Shown in pieces: positions 18,196-48,071 of a stretch of 64,000 bases of DNA. The position numbers and the translations under genes are program-made. The notes below the pieces were generated by a model. That model saw only the letters and a program-made list of their open reading frames with translations. It was not told the origin of the DNA and did no database searches. The first letter of the stretch is position 1, and each line of letters begins with the position of its first letter. Origin of the DNA: a virus (lineage: Duplodnaviria > Caudoviricetes). The stretch covers positions 1 to 64,000 of the IMG/VR virus record IMGVR_UViG_2788500073_000001; one strand, given 5' to 3'.

Positions 18196-18252
18196 CGCGG
18201 AGTGGAGCAGTTCGGTAGCTCGTCGGGCTCATAACGAACCCACTTTCGCAAC
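18196..18252 (+). pseudogene. truncated tRNA-fMet (5' half intact through the CAT anticodon)
   Basis: 18196-18235 matches the first 40 nt of the downstream tRNA-fMet except one base; T arm missing; 'TCGCAAC' is a possible remnant of the 3' end. Confidence 0.75.
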
Positions 18253-18289: not shown

Positions 18290-18366
<77 letters not shown>

Positions 18367-25652: not shown

Positions 25653-26828
25653 TTATTCGTCCCAATCGTTGACGTTAAATGGTAGATCATCCTCAGAAGC
25701 GCCCTGCTTTACCACTATGGGGAGGGCGATATGGGTAATCTTGCTTTTCCCTGCAAGCTCCGTTACGACCAAAGGGGAACTCGGGCCGTAAATCTTCATC
25801 TGCATAACAGGAAGCTGAAGATGGGAGCAAACTTCGGAAAGGTTTCGGGGGCTTATGGCAACTACCGCTTTCGGAAGGCTGCCGCCGGTTTGGGCGGGAA
25901 GCACATCCTCAATGTTTCCAAGACCGGTTTCATAGTGCGCTTCCACACAGCCTTTGCTGCTATCAGCGGACAGGAATACCGGTTGTTTTCTGGCGCTGCT
26001 GTCCAGAAGTTTTGCGCGCTCCAGGAACAGCGTCAAGCTGGATGCGTCGATAACGGCATCCAGGCATGGCGTTGGGGAAAGAGCCTTTATAACGGCATCT
26101 ATGCTGGAACGCCTGGAAGCACAACTGGGAATGCTGACGGTAATCTCATACTCTCCAAATCGCAGCAGATACCGGCGGCCGTCGCTGCCGATCAGGATTT
26201 CCGGCGCGTCTTCTTTGATTGAAAGCGGCGCCAGTGCCGTTATCACGCGAGGGTGGAGGAGATATTCTTCAGTTCCATCGCCGGTATAATCTGCCGGCGA
26301 TTCCACACAAGCAGCGATCTGGCCGTTTGTCGCAGTGATGGAAACACGGTCGTGCGTCAGCAAAATGCTTACTCTTTCCGTAGAGTCTTCGTGTGCCGAT
26401 TGGGCGGCAGCGTAGGCGGCAAGAGCGGCATTTTCAAAGACGTTTTGCGGGAGCCCGGAAAGCCCTTCTGCCGGAAATTCCGGGAATACCGGTTCGGGGA
26501 TGCTGGGCGGAAGGGCCCGATTCATCCGCGTTTTCCCGGCACTGAGCGTCAGCATACTATCGCGGACTGACAGCTTCCCTTCCGGGAAAGATTTCAGCAG
26601 ATCCAGGATGTCTTTGGCATTGGCAAAAACGGTAAATTCATTTTGAACCGGATACTCAAAGCAGCTCCGGCTCTGCACCTCCTTGCCGTAGAAGCAGACA
26701 ATCAGGCGGTCAGGCGCTTCCCCGCGAAGCATCGCATAGGAACCCTGGGTAGCCAGATTTCCCAAGCGTTTGACCTCAGCGGAGAACGCTTTATCAAAAT
26801 CCATCTCGAATAATTTAGGTGTACTCAC
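25653..26828 (-). CDS. divergent DNA polymerase III beta sliding clamp homologue
   Basis: 391 aa; 'ATNGQIA', 'LERAKLL', 'ISPRNL..V......PSSPLVV...HIALPI' align with DnaN motifs. Confidence 0.65.
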   Translation of the reverse strand: MSTPKLFEMDFDKAFSAEVKRLGNLATQGSYAMLRGEAPDRLIVCFYGKEVQSRSCFEYPVQNEFTVFANAKDILDLLKSFPEGKLSVRDSMLTLSAGKTRMNRALPPSIPEPVFPEFPAEGLSGLPQNVFENAALAAYAAAQSAHEDSTERVSILLTHDRVSITATNGQIAACVESPADYTGDGTEEYLLHPRVITALAPLSIKEDAPEILIGSDGRRYLLRFGEYEITVSIPSCASRRSSIDAVIKALSPTPCLDAVIDASSLTLFLERAKLLDSSARKQPVFLSADSSKGCVEAHYETGLGNIEDVLPAQTGGSLPKAVVAISPRNLSEVCSHLQLPVMQMKIYGPSSPLVVTELAGKSKITHIALPIVVKQGASEDDLPFNVNDWDE

Positions 26829-28123
26829 AGTGATTCCTCCTCATTTGGAAGTCGGCCAGAGTGATGCTGCTTATATATCACAAGCAGGTGGTCATCGACG
26901 CCTTTGCCCAGGTATTTCCCTTTGCTATGGGAGAAAAACTTCGGCAGAGGCTTTCCAGTGGCATATTCTTTTTTCAATTTTTGGCGCATTTCCAGAATGC
27001 TTTCCTTGATCTCCCGTTCCAGGTTATCCCTGTCCCTTCCCACATAGGGATTGGTGAACTTATCAAGATCATAGAATTCCACAATCTGCTCCACAGGGTT
27101 GGTTTCCATCAGCCATTGCAGCAGCGGCCGGACTCCTCCAAAATTGGAGGTTCCGACTACGCAGAGAACGCATAGGTCATCCTTCCCATAGAGTTTCTGG
27201 TACAGCGCCCTGGCCACATACCCTTTGATCGGGCCTTCGGTGACATAAACATACTTCAGCGGTTCCTTACCCATCTCCACATGGATCTCACTTACGGCGC
27301 TGATGCCGCTCTTCAGGCTTTCACGTCCACTCGTGAAGAAGCGGTATTTATCTTTTGCCGTAGTCGGCTTATTGAGCCTGATCTGCATGGAGACGATCAA
27401 TCCGTCTTTATTGCGGATAGGTACAAAATACCCGGGATCCGGGCAGTAAATACTCCAGTTCTCTTTTACTTCTCCAGTGGATTCGTCCACCTGTGAGAGT
27501 TTGAAGAAACCCGGTACATTTTCCAAATCCAGTCCCTGCGCAACCAGTTTCTGTGCCAGTTGCGTCCGGCCGAACAAGGGGGTAGACCGGAACATGATCC
27601 GGTCTATATCCCTGTCGGTCAGCCCTCGCTCATGAAGCGAAGCGCGGTGTGGCGCCGAGAGCTTCAAAAGCCGCAGAAATGCAGTATAGACAGCGTTCCT
27701 TTGCTCTGGGGAACTGATTTTGGAAGCCGCGTTAGCGGCTGATACAGCTGTTTGCCGCACCTGGCGCACCTTGTTCATATAGGCCGGGTCTTTCCGGCTG
27801 AGATTCAAGATGCGTTCCAGTTCCTTCATACCCCATTTCCGATCTTCTTCAGACGGTCGGAAGTAGAAGGCGCCGTTTTGAGAGCTGCTCCTTGTCGGCA
27901 CCAGCTTGGGATTGTGGAACAGGAGGAAAAGATCCAGCTTATCACCGCCGGCAGCGCACTTTGCGCATCGGCAGACGCCGCCATGTCCTTTGCTGACATT
28001 GACATTGAGCTTTTTCTTCCCCCCGCAGATTGGGCAATCATAATAACCACTATTGGAGCGAATCCGAGCGGCGTCGAGCCCCACGATGCTTATCACATCG
28101 AAAATTGAAAATTGGTCGAACAT
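26825..28123 (-). CDS. DNA primase-like protein (Zn finger + TOPRIM)
   Basis: 'CPICG...CRCAKC..GG', 'VTEGPIKG', 'YDLD', 'KGVDD'. Confidence 0.75.
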   Translation of the reverse strand: MFDQFSIFDVISIVGLDAARIRSNSGYYDCPICGGKKKLNVNVSKGHGGVCRCAKCAAGGDKLDLFLLFHNPKLVPTRSSSQNGAFYFRPSEEDRKWGMKELERILNLSRKDPAYMNKVRQVRQTAVSAANAASKISSPEQRNAVYTAFLRLLKLSAPHRASLHERGLTDRDIDRIMFRSTPLFGRTQLAQKLVAQGLDLENVPGFFKLSQVDESTGEVKENWSIYCPDPGYFVPIRNKDGLIVSMQIRLNKPTTAKDKYRFFTSGRESLKSGISAVSEIHVEMGKEPLKYVYVTEGPIKGYVARALYQKLYGKDDLCVLCVVGTSNFGGVRPLLQWLMETNPVEQIVEFYDLDKFTNPYVGRDRDNLEREIKESILEMRQKLKKEYATGKPLPKFFSHSKGKYLGKGVDDHLLVIYKQHHSGRLPNEEESL

Positions 28124-28149
28124 CCCGGCTTTCCCTCCTCAGTGTTCGA

Positions 28150-29394
28150 TTATCGTTTGTTCATCATCTCCACCAAAAGCAGCGTCGCCGCGTAGGCGGG
28201 AACATTTTTCCCATGGTAGAGATTTTTGCAGTTTTCTACGGCCTGGTTGGCAATATTGGTTCCCAGCGTACCGTAGATCTCACCAAATGTGCGGCCGGCA
28301 AACTGGCCCCTTGTGGAGGGATACCGGATTTGCATTACCAAGTCCTGATCGTTTTCCAGGAAGTTAATCGCCAGCTGGAGATCACGATTACGCATTTTCG
28401 TAGCAAATTCACCGTTGTTGCCGTTGATAAAGAACGCATCCACATCCTGATTTTGCTCATTGAAGAATCGCGGATCCAACTGCGGGTCTGGATAATTACC
28501 GGACATAGCCAGCATAATATAATCCCAAACCTTTTCTTCCGCTGTGCGCGGGTCTTCAGGCTCCGGCTCAACAGGAGACGCTTCAGTATCGGGTTGGAGG
28601 GAGGCGCCTTTTTCTGGTCCCTCCGGCGCCACTGGATCGCTCAACTCTTGTCGGCCAGCATCCTCTGTCACAACCGGCTGGGCAGGGGCTTCATCAGCCC
28701 GGCCCACATCAGCGGGAGGATCTGAGACAGGAACCGTGGCCTCTTTATCGGCTTTCGAACGTCTCTTTTTCACCGGCTTTTCTTCCGGCTGCTCTTCCGG
28801 TGCGGCAGCCTCCAGATCATGAATATCAATGATCTCGGAGGGCGCATTGGCATCTACTTTTGATTTCCCAGTCATGACCCCTGGCTGAGCCGGGGCAGCG
28901 GGAACCTCTGTAGGCGCCGCCTCATCCGGCGATCCAGCTGGTGCTGTTTCTGCAGCCTGCGGTTCCTCTGTCCCGAAAGTGTTCAGATCCAGCTGGCATC
29001 CATAGCCGGCAAAGTCCAATGCACGAGCGATCGCACGCGATTCCGCCGCTTCAATGAGTTTAATTCCGTCACCGTTCTGGCCGTCGGTCTGAGTATCTGC
29101 TGAGCCAAACGCATTGGCAATCGCTACGCCGTCAATGGTCACAGTCGCCTTCATGACAACCATGAACTCATCGCGGGAAACGATGTCTGTTTGGATTGTG
29201 CCGGCATTCCCATTTTTCAGCCGGAACCAAGTTACCTGAGAGCGGACCGGGAAAAATTTCCGAACCGGCTCGCCTTCAAAGGCAGGGGTAGATTCCTGTG
29301 CCAGAAGGGAAATGTCGATAGGAACTTCATTGATGGCTTTCAGCGCTTCGCAGTTGCCGCGATAGGGGGACGCCATTTTCTTCTCTGTTGTCAT
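28150..29394 (-). CDS. putative Rad52-like ssDNA-annealing protein with a long acidic linker
   Basis: 'V..WFR...IQTDIV...KATV...IEAAESRAIARAL..AGYG' N-terminal domain. Confidence 0.45.
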   Translation of the reverse strand: MTTEKKMASPYRGNCEALKAINEVPIDISLLAQESTPAFEGEPVRKFFPVRSQVTWFRLKNGNAGTIQTDIVSRDEFMVVMKATVTIDGVAIANAFGSADTQTDGQNGDGIKLIEAAESRAIARALDFAGYGCQLDLNTFGTEEPQAAETAPAGSPDEAAPTEVPAAPAQPGVMTGKSKVDANAPSEIIDIHDLEAAAPEEQPEEKPVKKRRSKADKEATVPVSDPPADVGRADEAPAQPVVTEDAGRQELSDPVAPEGPEKGASLQPDTEASPVEPEPEDPRTAEEKVWDYIMLAMSGNYPDPQLDPRFFNEQNQDVDAFFINGNNGEFATKMRNRDLQLAINFLENDQDLVMQIRYPSTRGQFAGRTFGEIYGTLGTNIANQAVENCKNLYHGKNVPAYAATLLLVEMMNKR

Positions 29395-29490
29395 TGTGAG
29401 TCCTCACTTTCTTACTTTTGTGGTTTTGGTTTCTATTTCTCTATGTGAAAAGGACTTCCCCCGACCAGGGAAAGCCCTTGAATTGGCAAT

Positions 29491-29650
29491 AAAAAAGGCA
29501 CGGTCGTGCCCAAAAGGGCGCAATCGTGCCGTTAGGTTTCACACCGGCCAGCTGTCAGCATGGACAGAAGGCCTTACTTTACTGCCTCGGTGGGCAGCGA
29601 ATACTTTCATGGAATACCTAGAGTGTACCCCCGTTTTTGTATCGTGTCAA
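29491..29650 (-). repeat. promoter-leader-terminator repeat, copy A
   Basis: TTGACA-17-TACACT, GTATTCCATG, hairpins P1 and P2, 15-bp terminator plus T6. Confidence 0.9.
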
Positions 29651-29682
29651 CACATCTTTGTTTTTTAATTCTTTTTAACACG

Positions 29683-31023
29683 TTATTTTCCCAATCTCTC
29701 CTCCAGAAGCATCCGGTCCTCCGCTGTTATGGAGTCTCCACCCATGGCAAATTCAATCAGGTCAGAGACGGAATTATTTAACCCAACCCCGTTATAGCTG
29801 CTCAGGTTGTCCACATCGGAAAACCGGCGGAACAGCGTTTTGTAGACCCTGACCCCCGTGAATGGATCGACAACGGAAGCCGTCATTTCAATAGCCGCGC
29901 TCTGGCTGCCTGTTTCTGTGCTGGTTAAGATGAAATAGCGAAGGCTGCACTCCAAAGAAGCCATACGTTCTTTCATCGCCTCCTCCATACCGGAATAATC
30001 ATCAAATTTTCGCTGATAGGAGGGATAGGTGGAGCTGATGGCGAAATGGCTGTCCAGATCGTCCCCGCCAAAGGAAAGTGTGGCCAGTGCGTCCATATCG
30101 CTCTTTTGAATGCCATCCACTGCCGTGTTCAGATATTCAACCAAGTCTTCATTGCCGAAAGCAGCTTCGGAAATCTCCCGTGCGTTGCCATAATCGTTTT
30201 TGAGCAGAAGGTCACCGCCGCGGGTGCCCTGGAACTCCACAGCGCCCCAGAAGAACGCATACTGGGGGATTTCATCGCCATAGGTATAGGATGTGGGATA
30301 ATACAGCATGGGCACATCATCTTCTATCAGGAACTCCAGCTTTACAAGATCTGTGCTTGCCGGAACACTGCCCATATCCATAGCAGAAATCGCCGCTGCC
30401 GCCCCTGTGGCTTTGAAAGAGGTCATCTCCTGATCGTATGCGGAATCTTCCCCTGCCGCAAGCTCAGGTGCTCTGGAGGCCATGTAGGGCGTTGTGACAG
30501 CGAGTGTAACGGTAACAAAATTGGACTGGCTGGGATCACCTCTGATTTCCAGTATCTCATAGGTCGTGGCACTCCCCATATTTCGGAACGCATCGCCGAT
30601 CGCCTCGTCCGCCAGACAGGTGTCCAGCATCAGCCGAAAGGGGTTATATTCCCCGCCGAAGGTGCGCGGTGAAACCTGCTGTTCGATGGTCTGCTCGTCA
30701 AGGGCCAACAACTTCGGAAGCATCTCCTCAATATTCCGGTCAACCTCTTCTTTTGTCAGCGTTGTGGGGGAGAGGTTGGAAAAATCCACTTCCGGGTAGG
30801 GCTGCTCATAATCCTGGTTGGTAGAATCAATATCCGGGATCTCCGATACCTGGGAAGACGATCCTTCCTGCTCACTGGAGAGGGAAGAAGAAGGCTCGCT
30901 TTCCGAACTGCCTGGCTCCTCCGTTGGCTCAGAGGACGGCTTTAAAAGCAGGAAGGCGCCGATTGCGACGACAGCTGCCGCTGCAATCAGCAGTGCCAGC
31001 GTTTTGGGTGATAGCTTTTTCAT
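29683..31023 (-). CDS. membrane-anchored or secreted acidic protein
   Basis: N-terminal TM/signal segment, Ser/Glu linker; adjacent to a signal peptidase. Confidence 0.7.
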   Translation of the reverse strand: MKKLSPKTLALLIAAAAVVAIGAFLLLKPSSEPTEEPGSSESEPSSSLSSEQEGSSSQVSEIPDIDSTNQDYEQPYPEVDFSNLSPTTLTKEEVDRNIEEMLPKLLALDEQTIEQQVSPRTFGGEYNPFRLMLDTCLADEAIGDAFRNMGSATTYEILEIRGDPSQSNFVTVTLAVTTPYMASRAPELAAGEDSAYDQEMTSFKATGAAAAISAMDMGSVPASTDLVKLEFLIEDDVPMLYYPTSYTYGDEIPQYAFFWGAVEFQGTRGGDLLLKNDYGNAREISEAAFGNEDLVEYLNTAVDGIQKSDMDALATLSFGGDDLDSHFAISSTYPSYQRKFDDYSGMEEAMKERMASLECSLRYFILTSTETGSQSAAIEMTASVVDPFTGVRVYKTLFRRFSDVDNLSSYNGVGLNNSVSDLIEFAMGGDSITAEDRMLLEERLGK

Positions 31024-31038
31024 TTGACAATCTCCTTT

Positions 31039-31542
31039 TTAGAAATGTGGAAGGGAAAATAGTTTTCTTTTTGCGACTGACCGGATTGCGGACGCTGGTA
31101 TGTAGGGGTTCTCCCAGTACCGGGCGTCATACGAGTGCTGACGGTTATCCCCCAGAAGCAGGTAGCAGCCTTCTGGAACTTGAAATATCTGCTCCTGGCC
31201 CTCCCTCTGGAATGACACATATTCCTCCCGAAGGGTTTTACCGTCAACAAAAATTGTCCCATCATCGGCAATTCGGACCTCTTCGCCGGGAAGGCCAATA
31301 ATCCTCTTGATCAGCATGGAGCCATCCTTTTCAAAGACGACAATATCTCCCCGTTCCAGTTCTGAAAAAACTCGGCTGCCCAAAAGGACATCGCCGCTGT
31401 TTAATGTGGGCGACATGCTTTCGCTGGGGACATACATCAGCATAAATACGCCTTGGAACAGAATGGTGGGAATCAACATAGCCAACGCCAGCAATACGAT
31501 AGCTTTGCCGAAAGAAACCGTGTGAACTGGATGCTGCGTCAT
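31039..31542 (-). CDS. lepB: signal peptidase I
   Basis: 'VPSESMSPTL', 'IKRIIGLPG', 'LGDNRQHSYDAR'. Confidence 0.92.
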   Translation of the reverse strand: MTQHPVHTVSFGKAIVLLALAMLIPTILFQGVFMLMYVPSESMSPTLNSGDVLLGSRVFSELERGDIVVFEKDGSMLIKRIIGLPGEEVRIADDGTIFVDGKTLREEYVSFQREGQEQIFQVPEGCYLLLGDNRQHSYDARYWENPYIPASAIRSVAKRKLFSLPHF

Positions 31543-31545
31543 ACC

Positions 31546-32046
31546 TTACTCCAGACCGGATTTAGGCGGCCGGTCCTCCACAAATTCGGTGGCGTCCCCT
31601 GCAGATTCCTCCCATTCTTCATCGCTGGGCAATTCGAAGTCCTCCGCGTGAAAGAAATCCGGCTGAGTCGTCATTTTCAAAGACTCATCCAGCTTGGGAT
31701 GCGCCGGATCGGAAGTACCGTTTGAGACATAATTGGAAGAATCTAAATAGCCCTCCAGCATCATGGGCATTTGGAGATGGAACCTGTACTCGGATTCCTC
31801 CGGCGCGTCTTCATTCCGGATATAGTCGTACTTGCCATCGTAAATCTCTTCATTGAAAACATCTTCCGCCATCCACTTGGCCACGTCCGCTTTGGCGACA
31901 ACGGCATTCAGCCCCACCGCCGATACCGTTACAGCAGCAGACGCCAACGCAATAGCGGAAAGGTTCCGGGGCGTGAAAAACTGGCCGTAATACCGCCTGG
32001 TGTGCTGAAGGCAGGCTCGAAGATTTGTGTGGATCCGCTTCATCAA
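31546..32046 (-). CDS. secreted hypothetical protein
   Basis: Hydrophobic segment with an A-X-A site; GGAGGAG RBS. Confidence 0.55.
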   Translation of the reverse strand: MMKRIHTNLRACLQHTRRYYGQFFTPRNLSAIALASAAVTVSAVGLNAVVAKADVAKWMAEDVFNEEIYDGKYDYIRNEDAPEESEYRFHLQMPMMLEGYLDSSNYVSNGTSDPAHPKLDESLKMTTQPDFFHAEDFELPSDEEWEESAGDATEFVEDRPPKSGLE

Positions 32047-32048
32047 AA

Positions 32049-32489
32049 TTACTCCTCCTTCCGGGATTTTTGACTTCTGAGGGTCAAGGTGTAGGGGCTC
32101 TCAATCCGGTCGATTGTCATAATACCGGACGCCTTATCGAATACGGCAGCTTGGATGCCGACGGCCGTTTGCTCACTGGCTGATGGGATTGCTCCCGCGG
32201 TGTTGCCTGGATAGCTCACCTTCACCGCGGCGTCCTTGGGGACTACCACAAGACGGTAGCCCAGCAAGTCCAAAAAGCCGGGAATACGCTGGAATTTCAA
32301 CCCATAGTTTGTGAGCCAGCCCATAAAGCCGCTATAACTTGGCCTGTTCCCGGAGGAGGTATCGACCTCGGAAGCCTCCCTGCAATATAGCTCGTAAAAA
32401 TCCTTATAGGTCATCTTATTGGCAGAAAGCAGGAAGCGGAACAGCTTGTCTTCCACTATCCGGCGGCTGTATGGCCGTTCTTTCGGCAT
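32049..32489 (-). CDS. putative HTH DNA-binding protein
   Basis: 'FLDLLGYRLVVVPK' end-of-HTH motif. Confidence 0.45.
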   Translation of the reverse strand: MPKERPYSRRIVEDKLFRFLLSANKMTYKDFYELYCREASEVDTSSGNRPSYSGFMGWLTNYGLKFQRIPGFLDLLGYRLVVVPKDAAVKVSYPGNTAGAIPSASEQTAVGIQAAVFDKASGIMTIDRIESPYTLTLRSQKSRKEE

Positions 32490-32641
32490 AGTATCATCTC
32501 CTGTCAAGATCCCAGCCTCAGAGACGGGCAATCAGTCGGGGCAATAGAATGAGCAAGGAAGGTTTGTGGAAGAAGGACCATTTGCATTTCTATTGTGACT
32601 ACCCGTCTCTCAAGCTGGGAATGCGATTTGTTTTGAAAAAC

Positions 32642-32996
32642 CGGGGCCGCAGGGAATCGAACCCTGATAAACCTTTCAACCCCATAGAGCGCCTGGTTTT
32701 CCAGGCGCCTTATGCCGGCCTTAACCCATACCGGCTTGCCCTGTCCCTCCGGCTCAGGCCGAACAACGCACTGAACTCCGAGCCAGCCTTCTTCCCTTTA
32801 GGGCTTCCGACACGTTCACAGGTGTCCACTCCATCTCTTTTCCCAGGGAGAGAACTGGTTAAGACAGGAGCGTTTTGCCGGGACAGATAATCATTTTTTC
32901 AGCCTGGTTCCCGGCCCAGGCCATTATTGCGTGCGATGGGGGGCGACCCCATACCTCCGGTTGGGCCCTCCGGCGTGCTCATTACACCACGCCCAC
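32642..32996 (-). ncRNA. candidate ncRNA with two degenerate tRNA-like domains and a pseudoknot
   Basis: Cloverleaf 32996-32928; canonical T arm CAGGG-TTCGATT-CCCTG at 32666-32650; upstream promoter at 33012-33044. Confidence 0.5.
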
Positions 32997-33047
32997 ATAT
33001 CCGTCTACTATCATTATAGTAAAAAAAACAGAAAAAACGACCAAAAT

Positions 33048-33076
33048 AAAAAAAGCCTCCACGAGGGAGGCTTTTT
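33048..33076. terminator. bidirectional terminator after the helicase gene
   Basis: AAAAAGCCTCC-ACGAG-GGAGGCTTTTT. Confidence 0.8.
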
Positions 33077-33091
33077 CTGCTTTTGAACGGC

Positions 33092-36000
33092 TTATGCCGT
33101 CAGCAATTCGGTCAGTTCAGCATATTCCTCCTTGAGTTGATCCAGCCGCTCCTGCTGTTCAAACGGCTCACTGAGCAATGCTTCAGCGGATTTGAGAGCG
33201 AGTTCGTTGGATCTGAGTTTATCCTGTTTTTCTTTCAGGGAATCCGGGATGCCGTTTACGATCTCGTCACAGAGCTTCAGGACAGAGATGCCCTTGAAAA
33301 TAATGCGATCCTGATCCAGCCTGTGTGTTGCCTTCCCCTGAAGGGCGATCGTGTAATCCTTGGCAGCAAAGAACGAAGATACGGCGTCTTGTCTGACTGC
33401 CACGATCTCCATTCCATTGTACTTCCCCAGTATATCTCCCTGCTCTAGTTTCACAACTTTTGGGCCGAGCACCTTAATAGCCTCGCTCCATTCCTCCTTG
33501 TTGTTGAGATGATAGCTTTTCCCGTCACATTCCAGAACAGGATCCCCATAATATGACTTGAGATGGGAAGCATCCTGCTCCAGCCTGGGGATCAGCTCCT
33601 TCAGATACTGGATGGTATGTGGGATGTTGATATGCACATCCTGTTTCAGACGGCTGCGCTGTGAGTCAAATCCACGCTTGAGGGTTTCCAGCCTGGCGAT
33701 CTCGCCTTCCAGCTTGGCGCGCTGGAGAAAACGGGTATCGCCGGTTGCGATCGCTTTGATCTCCGAATAGGTCAGCACCTTGGTATCGCTGTCCTCGATC
33801 GTGCGATGCGAGTAATCACCGCGCAGCACCTGGGAAATCAGTTTCGCCTTGAGCTCAATCAGCTGCCACATGTAGCTGTCAAACGACCCTTCTGTGACGT
33901 AGTTGAACACAAAGACGGTCGTGTGCATATTGCCGGGCCGTTCGATCCGCCCCTGCCGCTGGTCAATATCCTTCGGCGTCCACGGCACGTCCAAGTTATG
34001 GAGGGCAATGAGCCGGTTCTGGATATTGACCCCTTGGCCGATGGTGGCCGTCGATCCGATCAGCACACGCAGCCTGCCAGACTGCATTTTAATTCGCATA
34101 GAGGTCTGCTGCTTGGCAGTCTTAAAATCGTGGGCGAAGGCAATTTCGTCCTCGGGGATCCCCAGCTTCACCAGCTTCTGTTTCAAAGCGTCATAGACAT
34201 TGAAACCAGCCTGATTCGGGGTGGAGATGTCGCTGAAGGCCACCTGTGTAGCACGCAGGGACTGGTACTTCTGATAGAATTCCCAAATCCTATCGGCACA
34301 CTGGTTCACCTTATTGGTCTTGCTTTCAGGCGCCCTGGGACGGACCGTGCGGATGTCCAAAGCAGCTTTCCGTCCATCCACCGTAACAGCCAGCATATTG
34401 TCCTTATTTTTCTTGGTGCGGCCCTGACGGATCAGGTTGGCGCGCTCTACCAGCTCCTGCATATAGGCTTTCTGCTCAATGCTGGCAGGGCAGCTGACTG
34501 TTTGTATAACCACATCCGGCGTGTTCATCTGGATCTGGTCTTTGGTGACGGTATCCAGGAATTGCAAGACCATCTTCATGAGTTCAGGCACGTTTTTGAA
34601 GGAGGAAACCCGCCTTACCTGACGGAACCCTTCTCCATTTTCGTTCAGCCCTTCCGGCGGCAGCTCCCAATCGGTCGTAATATTGCCGTAGAGGGCAAGC
34701 CAGTCGTCCAGACCGAAAATGTTCTTTTCGATCAAGAGGTCTTCCTGGAAATACCGCTGGAGGGAATAGAGCTCGGTAATGCTGTTGACGATCGCCGTGC
34801 CGGTGGCAAAAGTGAAGCCGCCCTTCCCGCCATACAGACTTGCCAGGTATTTGGTTTTATAGTAGAGGTCGGTACACTTGGCCGAAGCGGTATTGGAAAC
34901 GCCGCGGAGTCCGTTCCCGCCGGTGGGGCAGTAGAGGTTTTTAAACTCGTGCGACTCGTCCACAAAGAGATAGTCGATTCCCAGTTCCTCCAGGTTATAA
35001 TCCGCGGATTGGTTCGCCAGGAAGTTCTGGGCCTGGTCCTCCCGCATCCGGGGTGTAACCAGATCCGCTGTGGTAACGCGGCTGTTTTCAGAGAACCGCA
35101 CACGGCGCATCAGTTCGGCGTTGTGCCAGATGGTCTTCTGCACAGAATCTGTCGGGGTCGGAATCAGGCTGAACGAGGAAGAACCGAGAATGATGGCGTC
35201 ATAATCCCCCAATGCCATGCGGGTGAGGAACCGTTTCCGGCGTGCTTTGCGCATGTCGGCCGGATCCGCCAGCAAAATGTTGGCGGAGGGGTAAAGGCGC
35301 ATCATCTCGCCTCCCCACTGCGGCAAGAGATTGTTCGGGACCAAGTAGAGGGGTTTGTTAATCCTTCCAAGACGCTTGAGTTCCATTCCGGCAGCCAACA
35401 GGGTGATGGTTTTTCCGCTGCCCACTGTATGGCCGATCAAGGCGCCGTTTTCCCGGATGATCCGGTATACTGCGTTTTTTTGATGCGGCTTGAGCTCAAT
35501 GGCAGCGGTCATTCCTGGAAAGGTCAGATGGCTTCCGTCATATTTAGGAACCACCTCATTGTTGTACTGCTGGTTATAGGCCGAAACGATTTCTGTTTCC
35601 CGTGTGGGGTCCTGGAAGATCCACTCACGGAATGCGTCCTCGATGAGGCGGCATTTTTCCAAAAGGATGACCGTTTTCTCATGATCCCGGACCTTGTGGA
35701 TTTTTCCGCTGGCGTCCGTTTCCTCTTTGGTCGCTACTACTTCATACTTGTTCATCAACCGTTGGGTCAGCCAAATCGCGTTATATTCCACCGTGCCGTA
35801 AACACTGCAGAATTCCGGGTTGGTAGCGGCAATGTAACAGTAGGTTTTGATCTTGTATCCTCCGTTCGCCTTCTTTTGAATGAGGAAGCTGTTGGGCCCG
35901 CGTCCAGTCTTTTTCTTCCCAATCTTTTCAAACAGGAATTGGGAAACGTAATCGGGGGACAGGAAGGGGGAACCCAGGGTGACATCAATATCCTCCGCCG

Positions 36001-38044
36001 GGATCAGCGGCGGCTGGGCCGCTTCCAGTGCTTTTACATTGGGCTCATAAGCCGGATCAGCGGCAGCAGTGGCTTTTGCTTCCTCCAGCTTTTGAAGGAC
36101 ATTGCCGCTCAGGTACTGGTCGCTGGTGAGCCATTCGTCCTCTTCGCTTTTGGCAGCGGGGTTCTTAAAGATCTGGCTGCCAGCCAGCTCCTGCAGCACG
36201 TCAGCTTCATCCATTTTGCACAGGCCGGCAATGTAGCGGATGTCTACCCATCCTTTGTGGTCCAGGCAGACAAAGAGAGATTCCTGCGGAGTATCACAGG
36301 AAGTGATGGCTTTCCGCATCTTGATGGTGCGTTTGGTGAAGATGTCGGCCTTGTGGACCACATCTTCCTCATCCGTGTATTCCAGAGAGGTGAGAAGAGA
36401 GGCTTCGGCATCCTCACGGAAGAGTCGGAGGTTTACCGGTTTGGTGAGAGGCCCGAATTCTTCTACAAACTGATCGTAGAAAAGATTGAGCTTTTCCTGC
36501 TCGGGCTCCAACTCTTCATCGGTACACTCCGCAATCTGCATCTGAATTACTTTCCGGGCCTGGTTGCGAATGGCGATCATACCCTTCACACGCTCCAGAG
36601 AACGGCCGGTGAATTTCTGCTTAATCATACGGCTGTCCACACGCTGGTACACCTCGCCGCCGATGAGAACCATCCCGAAGTTTTTGACGCCGGGAACAGC
36701 CGGAAGGCTTTGCCCATCTTCCGTTTCCTCATCCGTTTCTACCTCCTGATAGATCCCATCACATCCCCAGCCTTTTACGGCGGCATGGAACATCTTGACC
36801 TGGTTGCTTTCATCAACCGGTTCGACCGATTGAGGCGTTTTCATTTCAGGGACAAATTCGCCGATCATGCACTCGGGGTGTTCTTCATAATATGCAATGT
36901 GGCCGCGGGAAGGCTGAAACTGAGCGGTGTCCAGGGCGGATTTTTTTCGGGCTTTGGTAAACACCAGGATGTCGTAACAACACCCGTTGCCAAAAGCGTC
37001 ATAATCCATCCGCAGGCCGCCCACCAGCCGGACAGGGATTGCTGAAAGGATAAAGGGAACCTCCCTCCACAGCTGATCCACTGTTTTGCTGTCCATCATT
37101 ACCAGGAGAAGGCCGCCAGACCGTACTGCATTGACGGATCGCAGCATGGAAGCCGCGTAGTTGGGCAGTTCCAGGCCGCCGCCCTTCCTGCCGCGAAGGA
37201 TCTTAGTCCCTTTTGGATAGGAAGGGGCCATTGTGATCGCCAGGTCGTAATAACTGTCCTGGAGAAAGTCGTCCTCTGCCGTGATCTCGCTGGTGGGGAA
37301 TAACAGCGACTGAATGTCACCGCTCAGCCTGTCTGTGGCGTCAATCGTCACGCGGCTGGTCTTCACCAGCTTCTTGGGCAGCGAGCGGAGAATGGCGCCG
37401 TTTCCGGCGCCGTGGATCAGGATGTTCCCAGACTGGAAGCCTGCAGCCTTCAGGATACCGGAAACGGCGCGACGCACGATATGGCTGGGCGCATAAGGGT
37501 ACTGGGGGAGCGATTCAAACTCGTTAATTTCTTCGTCCGTGAAATGGGTTTCCAAGGTGTGCCGATGCTCCTGAACAGGGATCCCTTCCCAGCCGGAATA
37601 AGCGGCAAGGATCTCCTGGCTGGCAGTATCGGCATACTCATTTGCCAGGATAAGGCGTTTTGCCTCAAGGATCGCGTCAATATTCGCTTTGACCCGATCC
37701 GCTCCGTCCACAATCGGTTCCGGTTCGGCAGAAGGCGAAAACACCTTTGCTTTCCCTTTGCGGATGATAAGGTTTTGCACTGTCGGCAGATCCTGTTCCG
37801 CCTCCTTGTCCCACTCGATAAGCGGGGCTTTTTTCGGAGTGCTCTGAACGGTTTCCTCCGCTTCAGAATCATTTGCGAAGGAAGTGGGATCATCGTCTTC
37901 TTCTGCGAACATGGCTTCCCAATCCATTTGGTTCAGGTCATCCAGGGTGAGGATACCGGACTGACTACATTCATTGCCTGAAAGCAGACCGAATAAATCC
38001 TCGAAAGATACCTGCTTCATAGCAGGCGCTTGGTTTTTTGTCAT
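33092..38044 (-). CDS. DarB-like SNF2/SF2 helicase with an N-terminal methyltransferase-like domain
   Basis: 'HTVGSGKT', 'LFVDESH', 'ATGT', 'QRQGRIERPGN'; degenerate MTase fold at the N-terminus. Confidence 0.85.
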   Translation of the reverse strand: MTKNQAPAMKQVSFEDLFGLLSGNECSQSGILTLDDLNQMDWEAMFAEEDDDPTSFANDSEAEETVQSTPKKAPLIEWDKEAEQDLPTVQNLIIRKGKAKVFSPSAEPEPIVDGADRVKANIDAILEAKRLILANEYADTASQEILAAYSGWEGIPVQEHRHTLETHFTDEEINEFESLPQYPYAPSHIVRRAVSGILKAAGFQSGNILIHGAGNGAILRSLPKKLVKTSRVTIDATDRLSGDIQSLLFPTSEITAEDDFLQDSYYDLAITMAPSYPKGTKILRGRKGGGLELPNYAASMLRSVNAVRSGGLLLVMMDSKTVDQLWREVPFILSAIPVRLVGGLRMDYDAFGNGCCYDILVFTKARKKSALDTAQFQPSRGHIAYYEEHPECMIGEFVPEMKTPQSVEPVDESNQVKMFHAAVKGWGCDGIYQEVETDEETEDGQSLPAVPGVKNFGMVLIGGEVYQRVDSRMIKQKFTGRSLERVKGMIAIRNQARKVIQMQIAECTDEELEPEQEKLNLFYDQFVEEFGPLTKPVNLRLFREDAEASLLTSLEYTDEEDVVHKADIFTKRTIKMRKAITSCDTPQESLFVCLDHKGWVDIRYIAGLCKMDEADVLQELAGSQIFKNPAAKSEEDEWLTSDQYLSGNVLQKLEEAKATAAADPAYEPNVKALEAAQPPLIPAEDIDVTLGSPFLSPDYVSQFLFEKIGKKKTGRGPNSFLIQKKANGGYKIKTYCYIAATNPEFCSVYGTVEYNAIWLTQRLMNKYEVVATKEETDASGKIHKVRDHEKTVILLEKCRLIEDAFREWIFQDPTRETEIVSAYNQQYNNEVVPKYDGSHLTFPGMTAAIELKPHQKNAVYRIIRENGALIGHTVGSGKTITLLAAGMELKRLGRINKPLYLVPNNLLPQWGGEMMRLYPSANILLADPADMRKARRKRFLTRMALGDYDAIILGSSSFSLIPTPTDSVQKTIWHNAELMRRVRFSENSRVTTADLVTPRMREDQAQNFLANQSADYNLEELGIDYLFVDESHEFKNLYCPTGGNGLRGVSNTASAKCTDLYYKTKYLASLYGGKGGFTFATGTAIVNSITELYSLQRYFQEDLLIEKNIFGLDDWLALYGNITTDWELPPEGLNENGEGFRQVRRVSSFKNVPELMKMVLQFLDTVTKDQIQMNTPDVVIQTVSCPASIEQKAYMQELVERANLIRQGRTKKNKDNMLAVTVDGRKAALDIRTVRPRAPESKTNKVNQCADRIWEFYQKYQSLRATQVAFSDISTPNQAGFNVYDALKQKLVKLGIPEDEIAFAHDFKTAKQQTSMRIKMQSGRLRVLIGSTATIGQGVNIQNRLIALHNLDVPWTPKDIDQRQGRIERPGNMHTTVFVFNYVTEGSFDSYMWQLIELKAKLISQVLRGDYSHRTIEDSDTKVLTYSEIKAIATGDTRFLQRAKLEGEIARLETLKRGFDSQRSRLKQDVHINIPHTIQYLKELIPRLEQDASHLKSYYGDPVLECDGKSYHLNNKEEWSEAIKVLGPKVVKLEQGDILGKYNGMEIVAVRQDAVSSFFAAKDYTIALQGKATHRLDQDRIIFKGISVLKLCDEIVNGIPDSLKEKQDKLRSNELALKSAEALLSEPFEQQERLDQLKEEYAELTELLTA

Positions 38045-38135
38045 GACAATTCCTTCTTTCATTGGTTTTTGGCTTTTCTCTATGTAAAAAGGCCATCCCT
38101 TCTGACCAGGAAGGGACAGGCCTTGAATTGGCAAT

Positions 38136-38292
38136 AAAAAAGGCACGGTCGTGCCCAAAAGGGCGCAATCGTGCCGTTAGGTTTCACACCGGCCAAGCGT
38201 CAATGACGAAAGGCCTTACTTTACTGCTTCGGTGAGCAGCGGATACTTTCATGGAATACCTGAAGTATATGCCGCTTTTTGTATCGTGTCAA
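38136..38292 (-). repeat. promoter-leader-terminator repeat, copy B
   Basis: TTGACA-17-TATACT; P1 U-A variant; different inner P2 hairpin. Confidence 0.9.
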
Positions 38293-46715: not shown

Positions 46716-47315
46716 GTGATACATTTGATTTTCCTTATGCTGCAGGCAATCGAAGACGAATCTGACCGCAACCGGCTGTCCGCCTTCTATTTGCAGTATT
46801 ATGGCCTGCTGAAAGCCAAAGCAGAATTTGTTTTGAAGCAATTCCATATTGGGGGTTCTTCCAATTTGGCTGAAGATATGGTTCAGGATGCGATGGCCAA
46901 AATGATCCAGAATATTGATACGATTTCAAAATTAAGCGATCCTCAGCTGGTAGCTTACGGTGTCAAAACGGTACAATCCTGCGCCACTGACTACTGCCGG
47001 AAAATGATTTCACAGCAAAAAGCCATTGAAGATAAAGGGATTTTAGAAGGAGCTGATGAGGATAAAGTATGGGAAGACTATACCGGTCTTTTTACCGAAG
47101 AAGATCCCATGCTTTTTCTTGGAGGGGTTCTGGCGGCCCTTCCCCAAAAAAGTCGTGATGTCCTCCTCTACAAACATTATTTTGACTATAGCGACAAAAA
47201 AATCGCGGAGCTTTTAGGGATACAAGAAAATTCAGTACGGATGGCACTGTCAAGAGCAAGAAAAAAGGTACGAAAAACTTGGGCTGCAATCAAAAAGGAA
47301 AAAGGAGAAGGATGA
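46716..47315 (+). CDS. ECF sigma-70 factor
   Basis: 'AEDMVQDA' region 2; 'SDKKIAELLGI..NSVRMALSRARKK' region 4. Confidence 0.9.
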   Translation: MIHLIFLMLQAIEDESDRNRLSAFYLQYYGLLKAKAEFVLKQFHIGGSSNLAEDMVQDAMAKMIQNIDTISKLSDPQLVAYGVKTVQSCATDYCRKMISQQKAIEDKGILEGADEDKVWEDYTGLFTEEDPMLFLGGVLAALPQKSRDVLLYKHYFDYSDKKIAELLGIQENSVRMALSRARKKVRKTWAAIKKEKGEG

Positions 47316-47318
47316 CAG

Positions 47319-48071
47319 ATGATTTATAATAATGAGCAGCAGCTTTTAAAGGTAGAAGACGAACTATTTAATTTGGCACTATTGGGACTTTTGGAGATTG
47401 AAGGGCGTAAACTGATCGAGGAAAAAGAGCAGATGGTCCAAAGGGGAGAATACGCTTCCCCGCCTGCGGATCAGCTGCGCCGCATTGAAAAAATGATCCG
47501 GCAGGGCGAAAGAAAAAAAGTGTTCCAATCATCTATTCGAAAAATTTCCCCTGTTATTTCAAAGGTCGCTGTGTGGTTTATGGTGTTTATCATGGGAACC
47601 GGCACCGTGGTCTTTGCCTCAGCTGATATACGCGAAGCGCTCTATCGGCTGATTGTTGAACAACACGAAAGATATTCGCAAATTGAACTGCAGCAGGGAG
47701 AAGAAAATAATGCTGAATATATCTCCAATGCCGCTTCTTATGTTCCGTCCTATGTGCCGGACCAAATGGAATTAGATCAGATTGAAAAATTGCGGTACAG
47801 TGTCAACGCATCCTATATTGGAAAGGACAATGAGGAACTGTACCTGACCTTCCGGCAGATCGATCCTACCGGCAGCGCGGAAATCCGCGTGGACACCGAG
47901 GATGCGAATCGGATTGAAAGCGTTGCGATAGGAAGCAGCGAAGGGCTCCTGGTTGAAAAAGACGGATCTATTCAGATCGTCTGGAACGCAGATGGGACTG
48001 TTTTGACGGTGATCTCCAATCTCAACGAGGAAGAGGTGCTCCGTTTTGCACAGGGGATTCAAACTCCATAG
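47319..48071 (+). CDS. anti-sigma factor (DUF4367-like)
   Basis: Single TM segment; 'PSYVP' and C-terminal 'W......ISNL.EEE....A..I'. Confidence 0.75.
   Translation: MIYNNEQQLLKVEDELFNLALLGLLEIEGRKLIEEKEQMVQRGEYASPPADQLRRIEKMIRQGERKKVFQSSIRKISPVISKVAVWFMVFIMGTGTVVFASADIREALYRLIVEQHERYSQIELQQGEENNAEYISNAASYVPSYVPDQMELDQIEKLRYSVNASYIGKDNEELYLTFRQIDPTGSAEIRVDTEDANRIESVAIGSSEGLLVEKDGSIQIVWNADGTVLTVISNLNEEEVLRFAQGIQTP

What the first reader, a model, noticed from the sequence alone, without database searches (positions are those of the whole stretch)
32642..32996. Transcript built from two degenerate tRNA-like domains flanking a pseudoknot
Seen on the minus strand right after a class-2 promoter. 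A 69-nt cloverleaf at 32996-32928 has acceptor GUGGGCG/CGCACGC (one mismatch), D arm GUGU/GCAC, anticodon stem CCGG/CCGG around GCC, T stem AUGGG/CCCAU with non-canonical loop GUCGCCC, and no CCA. Next is hairpin GCCUGG/CCAGGC, whose loop GCCGGGA pairs perfectly with downstream UCCCGGC, then further stems. A Ser/Leu-like domain follows with a collapsed anticodon arm (GCGCCUGG-AAAA-CCAGGCGC) and a canonical T arm CAGGG-UUCGAUU-CCCUG. Inference: a tRNA-mimic ncRNA (decoy for anticodon nucleases, or RNase P/Z processing tags releasing the central RNA), or a decayed tRNA array. It lacks the G3:U70 pair and tag peptide of tmRNA.
Basis: partly seen in the sequence, partly recalled or inferred. Interest (0 to 1): 0.7.

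Follow-up and report, generated by a model that had tools for sequence, protein, structure and literature searches.

The report
tRNA-shaped modules in an orphan leader
A 355-base non-coding stretch at the head of a gene cluster in an integrated mobile element from a chicken-gut bacterium holds one clearly tRNA-derived mini-structure and a looser cloverleaf, most likely cutting signals for tRNA-processing enzymes, but no distant relatives or clear expression data could be found to prove it.

Summary
The features are individually rare. A strict tRNA-geometry cloverleaf (32996-32929) occurs in 21 of 20,000 shuffles. A hairpin-loop pseudoknot (32921-32877) occurs in 15 of 5,000. An acceptor/T-arm minihelix (32683-32643) scores tRNA 22 bits and mascRNA 29 bits, both below threshold. 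Its pattern matched 0 of 401 Oscillospirales genomes.

It is not a tRNA or a tmRNA. The cloverleaf gets no tRNA-model hit and is not the minimum-energy fold. Overall fold stability is unremarkable (z -1.59).

The stretch sits between the terminator of a giant SNF2-helicase gene and an XRE-like regulator. That regulator heads a primase/clamp/ParB cluster in an element integrated at tRNA-Met.

Only 99%-identical copies were found. Their 5 differences all fall in the central segment, so covariation cannot be tested. Metatranscriptome contigs cover the stretch weakly and run across both proposed ends, so neither a discrete RNA nor an abundant one is shown.

Best reading (about 0.35): a structured leader whose tRNA-like modules are RNase P/Z cleavage signals. 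The main rival (about 0.3) is relic tRNA sequence. Interest is moderate.

The parts
33048..33078 (-). Intrinsic terminator of the upstream 1688-aa SNF2-helicase gene (ORF 33092-38158). It sets the upstream limit of the unit.
   Evidence: 13-pair stem, 5 G-C pairs, T-run; ORF and Pfam.
33013..33018 (-). TATAAT box behind a T-run. It is a candidate -10 element with no -35. The start would lie about 10 nt before the cloverleaf.
   Evidence: Sequence. Not called by the consensus scan. Inferred only.
32928..32996 (-). 5' cloverleaf with tRNA geometry (7/2/4/5/4/1/5/7/5/4/5/7/5/7) and GCC at the anticodon place. The D loop, T loop and position 33 are non-canonical.
   Evidence: 2 hits in the window; 21 of 20,000 shuffles; ARAGORN at ps90 only; no tRNA-model hit; cloverleaf -22.8 against MFE -26.8 kcal/mol.
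32877..32921 (-). Hairpin GCCUGG/CCAGGC whose loop GCCGGGA can pair with UCCCGGC 18 nt downstream, giving a candidate H-type pseudoknot. The nested alternative is the MFE.
   Evidence: 15 of 5,000 shuffles; MFE uses the loop/downstream helix; z -1.56.
32715..32876 (-). Central segment with a predicted long-range helix CUCCUGU/GGGACAGGG and inner hairpins. It carries all 5 differences from the 99% copies.
   Evidence: z -0.86.
32684..32714 (-). GC-rich hairpin CAUA-A-GGCGCCUGG-AAAA-CCAGGCGCU-C-UAUG directly 5' of the minihelix.
   Evidence: (I4).
32642..32683 (-). tRNA-like minihelix. It comprises acceptor GGGGUUG/CGGCCCC, a 10-nt linker in place of the D and anticodon arms, T arm CAGGG-UUCGAUU-CCCUG and discriminator G. 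It is followed by G and UUUUU, with no CCA.
   Evidence: mascRNA 29.1 bits, tRNA 22 bits; pattern in 0 of 401 genomes; 3' domain z -2.02.
32510..32620 (-). Very stable long hairpin in the rest of the leader. It ends about 5 nt before the ribosome-binding site of the XRE-like gene.
   Evidence: I1, 25-nt arms; -55.2 kcal/mol, z -8.38, 0 of 200 shuffles.
32049..32489 (-). First gene of the downstream cluster: a 146-aa protein, probably a small XRE-like helix-turn-helix regulator.
   Evidence: 3 relatives only; Atlas leads at 0.90 to XRE/HTH clusters; a lead, not proof.

Best explanation
The stretch is the structured front part of a leader of about 515 nt, running from about 33005 to 32490. The leader belongs to an operon that starts with an XRE-like regulator and continues into a signal peptidase, a primase-like protein, a sliding-clamp-like protein and ParB. 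The operon lies in an element integrated at tRNA-Met of an Oscillospirales bacterium.

The leader carries a tRNA-derived acceptor/T-arm minihelix at its 3' side and a tRNA-shaped cloverleaf at its 5' side.

Proposed mechanism:
1. RNase P cuts just 5' of G32683, and perhaps 5' of G32996.
2. RNase Z cuts after the discriminators (G32642, A32928), which lack an encoded CCA.
3. This releases a central pseudoknot-bearing RNA of about 240 nt.
4. It also leaves a downstream mRNA whose new 5' end is guarded by the very stable hairpin 32620-32510.

Shown: the sequence features, their rarity, the strand, and the gene context.

Inferred: transcription from the TATAAT, every cleavage, and any role of the released pieces.
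For: - The minihelix matches the tRNA model with only the D and anticodon arms missing (22 bits, E 0.0081) and the mascRNA model (29.1 bits, E 0.00013). mascRNA is a known RNase P/Z-processed tRNA-like tag (recalled, not from a call).
- The minihelix pattern occurs in 0 of 401 Oscillospirales genomes.
- The cloverleaf and the pseudoknot are each rare in shuffles (21 of 20,000; 15 of 5,000). They lie in the same intergenic region on the same strand.
- The G.U pairs in the acceptor and D stems, and the UUCGAUU loop, fit only the minus strand.
- The position fits a leader: a terminator upstream, no ORF of 60 aa or more on that strand, and no Pfam hit at E<=1 for the two plus-strand ORFs tested.
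- 20 of 21 cloverleaf stem pairs are intact although the loops are non-canonical. This is not the pattern of neutral decay (inference).
- The 99.2% copies L180 and L181 differ at 6 places in the 602-nt intergenic region. None lies in the terminator, -10 box, cloverleaf, pseudoknot, hairpin/minihelix or long hairpin, which together make up about half of it. By my own arithmetic p is about 0.01-0.03.
- An RNA-library contig spans 32539-32808, joining the 3' half to the downstream leader.
- Precedents: tRNA-like t-elements as RNase P/Z signals at mRNA ends (PMC1920247, abstract). RNase P also processes the phage P4 CI and P1/P7 C4 RNAs (PMC5499578, passage).
Against: - No expression or processing is shown. 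The RNA-run contigs over the region have low depth (2.85), no higher than contigs in the neighbouring genes (6.48 and 6.09). They bridge both proposed ends, and DNA carry-over cannot be excluded.
- There are no homologues beyond 99% identity, so there is no covariation.
- Thermodynamic stability is ordinary (z -1.59 overall; cloverleaf z +0.26). The cloverleaf is 4 kcal/mol above the MFE.
- The cloverleaf lacks the elbow nucleotides (G18, G19, U54, A58) that help RNase P and RNase Z bind (established knowledge, recalled).
- The promoter has no -35.
- The substitution density of the central part (5 in about 160 nt) is as high as in the neighbouring genes.
Confidence: 0.35

Rival explanations
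1. Relic tRNA sequence without present function. On this view the minihelix is a tRNA gene that lost its D and anticodon arms, or the remains of an old integration site or of a tRNA cluster carried by the element. The cloverleaf and pseudoknot are then either further decayed remains or chance pairings in GC-rich, CCGG/GGCC-rich sequence.
For: - The family is orphan and lineage-restricted.
- Fold energies are ordinary.
- The cloverleaf gets no tRNA-model hit.
- ARAGORN sub-threshold hits are common in GC-rich DNA (47 in 579,479 bases).
- There is no sign of an abundant RNA.
- Mobile elements often carry tRNA genes and tRNA-derived att sites (established knowledge).
- A 40-nt copy of the tRNA-Met 5' half at 18196-18235 shows that tRNA fragments do arise in this locus.
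Against: - The minihelix keeps a perfect T arm and a 7-bp acceptor, with the 5' strand moved to 10 nt from the T stem. An att relic would keep only the 3' part.
- No second copy exists in the 80-kb record, and no integrase is adjacent.
- The cloverleaf keeps 20 of 21 stem pairs while its loops differ. This is the reverse of neutral decay.
- 0 of 6 intergenic differences fall in the modules.
- Three rare features share one strand of one intergenic region.
Confidence: 0.3
2. A trans- or cis-acting immunity or control RNA of the element, in the manner of phage P4 CI or P1/P7 C4. A small RNA would be cut out of the leader by RNase P and would then pair with sites in the same transcript to stop transcription or translation of the regulator/replication operon.
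For: - The place in the element is the same: the leader of the regulator/replication genes of an integrated element.
- RNase P-type substrate shapes are present.
- CUCCUGUC (32870-32863) is an 8-nt perfect complement of the ribosome-binding region GACAGGAG (32505-32498) (I17).
- P4 CI and P1/P7 C4 are RNase P substrates (PMC5499578 passage). Their mode of action is recalled, not read.
Against: - The best duplex of the RNA with the ribosome-binding window (-23.4 kcal/mol) is matched by 30% of 1000 shuffles. For the duplex with the whole leader, 69% of 500 shuffles score at least as low.
- No hit to the C4 family; isrK reaches 18.8 bits, far below its gathering score of 50.
- No repeated target boxes were found.
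Confidence: 0.1
3. A DNA-level element rather than an RNA: a replication origin, a single-strand origin, or an operator region of the adjacent replication/partition module. Its hairpins would form in single-stranded DNA or bind the regulator.
For: - It lies directly upstream of the regulator, primase-like, clamp-like and ParB genes.
- There is strong inverted-repeat content, above all the 32510-32620 hairpin (z -8.38).
- In the unrelated viral locus L194, a similar hairpin plus minihelix lies about 250 nt upstream of a phage replisome-organiser gene.
Against: - The UUCGAUU T loop with an acceptor stem is a signature of RNA-processing substrates, not of known origins.
- No iterons or direct-repeat families were found.
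- No AT-rich unwinding stretch lies inside the region. GC there is 56-57%.
Confidence: 0.1
4. A tRNA decoy that soaks up a host anticodon nuclease or another tRNA-directed defence.
For: The overall cloverleaf shape with a GCC triplet at the anticodon place, and its location on a mobile element.
Against: - The anticodon arm is non-canonical: an A.A closing pair or a 9-nt loop, and G instead of U at position 33.
- The minihelix has no anticodon arm at all.
- There is no evidence of abundance.
- No known nuclease target is implied.
Confidence: 0.05

Closest known systems
tRNA-like 't-elements' of plant mitochondrial transcripts
   Same: These are tRNA-shaped but non-tRNA structures placed at the ends of other RNAs. 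They are thought to act as cis-signals for RNase P and/or RNase Z (PMC1920247, abstract).
   Different: They occur in organelles, not in a bacterial mobile element. No sequence relation exists. Processing here is untested.
mascRNA / MEN-beta tRNA-like tags (Rfam RF01684)
   Same: This is the best Rfam match: acceptor plus T arm with reduced D and anticodon arms, at the 3' end of a longer non-coding RNA (29.1 bits). RNase P/Z release of mascRNA is recalled, not from a call.
   Different: It is a vertebrate family. The score is below the gathering score of 42.5, so this is analogy and not membership.
Phage P4 CI RNA and P1/P7 C4 RNA (RNase P-processed leader RNAs of temperate elements)
   Same: Small RNAs cut by RNase P out of a leader transcript in the control region of an integrated or plasmid prophage (PMC5499578 passage).
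   Different: Those substrates are hairpin-like and lack a T-loop equivalent (same passage). There is no Rfam C4 hit here and no significant target complementarity.
tmRNA (ssrA)
   Same: Similar length (about 355 nt), with a tRNA-like part plus a pseudoknot.
   Different: - The 5' and 3' ends do not pair.
- G3-C70 is present instead of G3.U70.
- There is no credible tag frame.
- Scores are 12.1 bits (RF00023) and 8.8 bits (permuted), against a gathering score of 47.
- ARAGORN finds none at default settings.
Canonical tRNA (RF00005), e.g. tRNA-Gly(GCC)
   Same: The 5' module has exact cloverleaf geometry. The 3' module has a canonical T arm and acceptor.
   Different: The 5' module has no model hit and lacks G18, G19, U33, U54 and A58. 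The 3' module lacks the D and anticodon arms. Neither encodes CCA.

Membership tests
tRNA (RF00005): 5' cloverleaf 32996-32929 | Cloverleaf with standard stem and loop lengths | tested here: met
   The strict geometry scan gives 2 hits in the window, the real tRNA-Met and this one. 21 of 20,000 shuffles give such a cloverleaf.
tRNA (RF00005): 5' cloverleaf 32996-32929 | Score at or above the family threshold of the covariance model (29 bits), or an ARAGORN call at default settings | tested here: not met
   No tRNA hit at gathering, nor at E<=10 in a 91-nt search. ARAGORN finds none at default settings, only at ps90.
tRNA (RF00005): 5' cloverleaf 32996-32929 | Conserved tertiary nucleotides (G18 G19, U33, U54-A58 T loop) | tested here: not met
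   D loop AAUGA, anticodon loop GGGCCCA, T loop GUCGCCC. U8, A14, G53, U55, C56 and C61 are kept.
tRNA (RF00005): 3' minihelix 32683-32642 | All four arms present, and a score of at least 29 bits | tested here: not met
   22 bits. The acceptor and T arm align, while the D and anticodon arms are reduced to 3 and 1 nt.
tmRNA (RF00023 / permuted RF04321) | Model score of at least 47 bits, or an ARAGORN tmRNA call | tested here: not met
   12.1 bits and 8.8 bits. None at default settings. At ps70-80 only calls with implausible tags appear.
tmRNA (RF00023 / permuted RF04321) | G3.U70 in an acceptor formed by the 5' and 3' ends, and a tag reading frame | tested here: not met
   G3-C70 in both modules. 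The acceptor strands are local. There is no frame ending in the usual hydrophobic tail.
mascRNA-menRNA (RF01684) | Gathering score of 42.5 bits | tested here: not met
   29.1 bits, E 0.00013 in a 100-nt search. This is a shape analogue only.
RNase P/Z processing tag (t-element-like): functional class | Coaxial acceptor/T-arm stack of about 12 bp with a T loop and an unpaired 3' discriminator without CCA | tested here: met
   7-bp acceptor plus 5-bp T stem, UUCGAUU loop, discriminator G and then GUUUUU.
RNase P/Z processing tag (t-element-like): functional class | RNA ends at the module borders in vivo, or cleavage in vitro | not testable with these tools
   Only assembled contigs of RNA runs were available. 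They show neither ends nor strand.
P4 CI / P1 C4-type immunity RNA | Family model hit, and complementarity to target boxes in the same transcript | tested here: not met
   No C4 hit. Duplex energies are within the shuffle range: 30% and 69% of shuffles do as well.

The most novel reading that the evidence does not exclude
This could be a new class of bacterial mobile-element RNA. In it, a pseudoknotted non-coding RNA of about 240 nt is bracketed by two tRNA-shaped modules and is released from the leader of the element's regulator/replication operon by the host's tRNA-maturation enzymes. That would be a bacterial counterpart of the MALAT1-mascRNA and plant t-element arrangements, and it would couple control of the element to RNase P/Z activity. 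The unrelated viral locus L194, which has a similar hairpin plus minihelix upstream of a replisome-organiser gene, hints that such minihelix tags may recur in front of replication modules.
Probability: 0.2. Interest if true: 0.65.

Novelty: new variant of a known kind. Interest (0 to 1): 0.4.

Why it matters
If the modules are real processing signals, this would be a clear bacterial case of tRNA mimicry used to cut a leader RNA into parts, on a mobile element that is widespread in chicken-gut metagenomes. It would link element control to the host tRNA-processing machinery. If it is only relic tRNA sequence, it is an ordinary by-product of tRNA-associated mobile DNA. The present data do not separate the two.

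Tried and rejected
Searches for homologues that found nothing:
- blastn against plasmids and phages: no match.
- An exact 21-mer: 0 hits in IMG/VR, and 4 unrelated chance hits in genomes.
- The neighbouring protein as anchor: no relatives in viral or genome contigs, whether queried alone or as alignment A1.
- The metagenome scan: only two 99% copies.
- The 446-aa operon protein in IMG/VR: none.
- The C-terminus of the SNF2 protein: 204 relatives among 221 candidates in genomes (80 kept) and 9 in IMG/VR, all at 50% identity or less. Their flanks hold nothing like the RNA: nhmmer found nothing in them (its only hits, E 0.36 and 5, were in L002 and L005 from the 21-mer scan). The T-loop motif occurred only in L001 (own), L004 and L076. 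ARAGORN found 0 genes in the 18 of these 89 loci that I submitted.
- blastn of the RNA in 401 Oscillospirales genomes: 5 genomes with chance hits of 21-31 nt. Of the two I inspected, L175 and L178 lie in ARAGORN-negative stretches that look protein-coding.

Ideas rejected:
- Nested att site: no repeat of the region in the 80-kb record, and no tRNA in 64001-80312.
- Protein-coding on the plus strand: ORF 32549-32890 (113 aa) has no Pfam hit at E<=1 and a random-looking translation. The 5 differences fall on codon positions 3, 3, 2, 1 and 2.
- Anti-SD pairing with the regulator's ribosome-binding site: not better than shuffles.
- tmRNA, group I intron, RNase P RNA, ROOL/GOLLD, Y-RNA-like and T-box: no Rfam hit at E<=10.

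RNA runs:
- Only low-depth contigs were available.
- X17 and X19 are probably DNA.
- X16 covers 32539-32808 and X18 covers 32944-33223.
- The rest of the RNA has no cover. For contigs, this proves nothing.

Paper searches listed nothing describing this RNA. I read only listings, one abstract and one passage. Supplementary files were not opened.

Full report
**Observation**

- The 5' cloverleaf has standard tRNA spacing. It comprises a 7-bp acceptor (one G.A mismatch and one G.U), a 2-nt spacer, a 4-bp D stem, a 1-nt spacer and a 5-position anticodon stem with an A.A closing pair. The 7-nt loop has GCC in the middle. A 4-nt variable region, a 5-bp T stem, a 7-nt loop and discriminator A follow. 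No CCA is encoded.
- The hairpin GCCUGG/CCAGGC follows at 32921-32902. Its loop GCCGGGA is perfectly complementary to UCCCGGC at 32883-32877.
- The 3' part holds the hairpin GCGCCUGG-AAAA-CCAGGCGC and a canonical T arm, CAGGG-UUCGAUU-CCCUG.

**Is it more than chance?**

I wrote a scan for strict tRNA geometry.
- It finds two places in the 64-kb window on both strands: the real tRNA-Met (18290) and this cloverleaf.
- 21 of 20,000 dinucleotide shuffles of the 363-nt region contain one.
- In 1,158,958 scanned bases of other loci it gives 8 hits. These are one real tRNA, one isolated site, and one coding site shared by six related loci.

The pseudoknot-type arrangement occurs in 15 of 5,000 shuffles and twice in the window.

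The 3' module is recognised by covariance models:
- mascRNA-menRNA, 29.1 bits (gathering 42.5), E 0.0013 in a 1-kb search and 0.00013 in a 100-nt search.
- tRNA, 22 bits (gathering 29), E 0.0081, with the D and anticodon arms collapsed.
- A pattern for such a minihelix matches 0 of 401 Oscillospirales genomes.

My criteria were set after seeing the structures, so each p-value is optimistic. Even so, three rare features on one strand of one intergenic region are unlikely to be coincidence.

Several results limit this:
- ARAGORN and Rfam at their normal thresholds find nothing here.
- ARAGORN calls the cloverleaf tRNA-Gly(gcc) only at 90% thresholds. That setting yields 3 hits in this window and 47 in 579,479 bases of GC-rich control loci.
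- The tRNA model does not hit the cloverleaf even at E<=10 in a 91-nt search.
- The cloverleaf (-22.8 kcal/mol) is less stable than a competing fold (-26.8).
- Fold z-scores are -1.59 for the whole region. For the parts they are +0.26, -1.56, -0.86 and -2.02.

**Context**

The window is part of an 80,312-base record classed as a provirus. The host genes to the left (PGK, iPGM) are closest to Oscillospirales MAGs, at 74% or less.

- A 588-aa tyrosine integrase lies next to tRNA-Met.
- Almost all large ORFs from about 46 kb down to 18.5 kb are on the minus strand.
- Upstream of the region is a 1688-aa SNF2-type helicase gene, which ends in a strong terminator.
- Downstream come a 146-aa protein that is probably an XRE-like regulator (Atlas leads at 0.90; only 3 relatives among 5.8 billion proteins) and a 166-aa protein.
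- An S26 signal peptidase and two unknown proteins come next.
- A primase-like protein, a clamp-like protein and a ParB-like protein complete the cluster.
- An ECF-type sigma factor with a DUF4367 neighbour lies at 46.7-48.1 kb.

The only promoter-like feature in front of the region is a TATAAT (33018-33013) behind a T-run. The scan did not call it.

After the minihelix comes G, then UUUUU, then 150 nt that form an exceptionally stable hairpin (32620-32510; -55.2 kcal/mol; z -8.38; 0 of 200 shuffles). This hairpin ends just before the regulator's ribosome-binding site.

**Relatives and variation**

No diverged relative was found in any collection.

- Two metagenome loci (L180, L181) are identical to each other over the compared 3001 nt and 99.17% identical to the window (25 differences).
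- Six differences lie in the 602-nt intergenic region. Five are in the central segment (32875, 32770, 32766, 32750, 32739) and one is next to the start codon (32490).
- None lies in the cloverleaf, pseudoknot, hairpin/minihelix, long hairpin, terminator or -10 box.
- Four of the five fall in positions that are unpaired in the MFE. One breaks a predicted G-C pair.
- This is a weak hint of constraint on the modules (my arithmetic gives p of about 0.01-0.03). It is not a covariation test.

**Occurrence and expression**

- The stretch is held by 20 of the 24 listed runs from 11 studies, mostly chicken-gut metagenomes.
- Four RNA-labelled runs were laid, and two of them are probably DNA.
- The metatranscriptome X16 has a 270-nt contig, 32539-32808 (depth 2.85). 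It crosses the proposed 3' end. X16 also has contigs in both neighbouring genes at depths of 6.48 and 6.09.
- X18 has a contig, 32944-33223, that crosses the terminator, the TATAAT and the proposed 5' end.
- So neither an abundant nor a discrete RNA is shown. If these contigs are RNA at all, transcription runs through both ends.

**Interpretation**

The 3' module is a true tRNA-like minihelix, the minimal shape recognised by RNase P, RNase Z and the CCA-adding enzyme (established knowledge). The closest functional precedents are:
- plant mitochondrial t-elements (PMC1920247, abstract);
- the mascRNA tag (recalled);
- RNase P-processed leader RNAs of temperate phages, P4 CI and P1/P7 C4 (PMC5499578, passage).

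I therefore favour a processed leader: cuts at the minihelix, and perhaps at the cloverleaf, separate an upstream non-coding RNA from an mRNA that starts shortly before a protective hairpin. Confidence is about 0.35.

The main rival, at about 0.3, is relic tRNA sequence without function. Three observations argue against it:
- the moved 5' acceptor strand;
- the intact stems with altered loops;
- the absence of any repeat or adjacent integrase.

A P4-CI-like antisense role is not supported by complementarity tests. A DNA-level origin or operator role cannot be excluded. A decoy role has no support.

**Novelty**

The region is not a member of any Rfam family. Three literature searches listed nothing that describes it. 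If functional, it would be a new variant of tRNA-like processing tags. As it stands, it is an orphan with suggestive anatomy.

Noticed in passing
window 32510-32620 (-): A long, nearly perfect hairpin (25-nt arms plus inner pairs) lies just upstream of the ribosome-binding site of the XRE-like gene. It folds at -55.2 kcal/mol against -27.7 for shuffles (z -8.38). It could be an RNase III site, a 5' stabiliser or an operator.
   Followed up: partly
window 18196-18235 (+): A 40-nt, 97.5% identical copy of the 5' half of tRNA-Met (18290-18329) lies 94 nt upstream of the real gene. It is probably a scar of an earlier integration or excision. No copy of the tRNA 3' end was found elsewhere in the 80-kb record.
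   Followed up: partly
L194 7916-7990 and about 8370-8395 (-): An unrelated IMG/VR contig has a GC-rich hairpin followed by an acceptor/T-arm minihelix with a similar linker (AAUGGCUAG here, AAAGGUUUAU in the window). It lies about 250 nt upstream of a phage replisome-organiser gene (Pfam PF09681, E 2.6e-25). A second T-arm fragment lies about 400 nt further upstream. ARAGORN and Rfam (gathering) call nothing there.
   Followed up: partly
L183, L188, L190, L193; L189, L191: Two further groups of IMG/VR loci carry minihelix-like sequences, with an acceptor strand 8-12 nt from a UUCGA T arm. ARAGORN does not call them tRNAs. Some may lie inside coding regions. In all, 13 loci matched the pattern, and 2 of these were real tRNAs.
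   Followed up: no
window 46716-48071 (+): The element encodes an ECF-type sigma factor (Sigma70_r2/r4) followed by a DUF4367 protein, a possible anti-sigma partner. This could explain promoters without a standard -35.
   Followed up: no
window 25653-32046 (-): The operon behind the leader mixes an S26 (SipW-like) signal peptidase and two unknown proteins of 414-446 aa with primase-like, clamp-like and ParB-like genes. No phage structural or conjugation genes were recognised among the ORFs tested.
   Followed up: partly
window 32686-32731 (-): There is a short direct repeat: UAUGGGUUAAGG (from 32731) and UAUGGGGUUGAAAGG (from 32686). Either copy could pair with the 3' strand CGGCCCC, so the minihelix and a longer class-II-like fold are alternatives. 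Two modules, GGCCUG[G/A]GCCGG...CCGGCA[A/U]AA, recur 162-163 nt apart.
   Followed up: no
window 31500-34500: The stretch is held, at half of its sampled words or more, by 15 public runs. Most are labelled chicken-gut metagenome. In all, 20 rows from 11 studies hold some of it.
   Followed up: no
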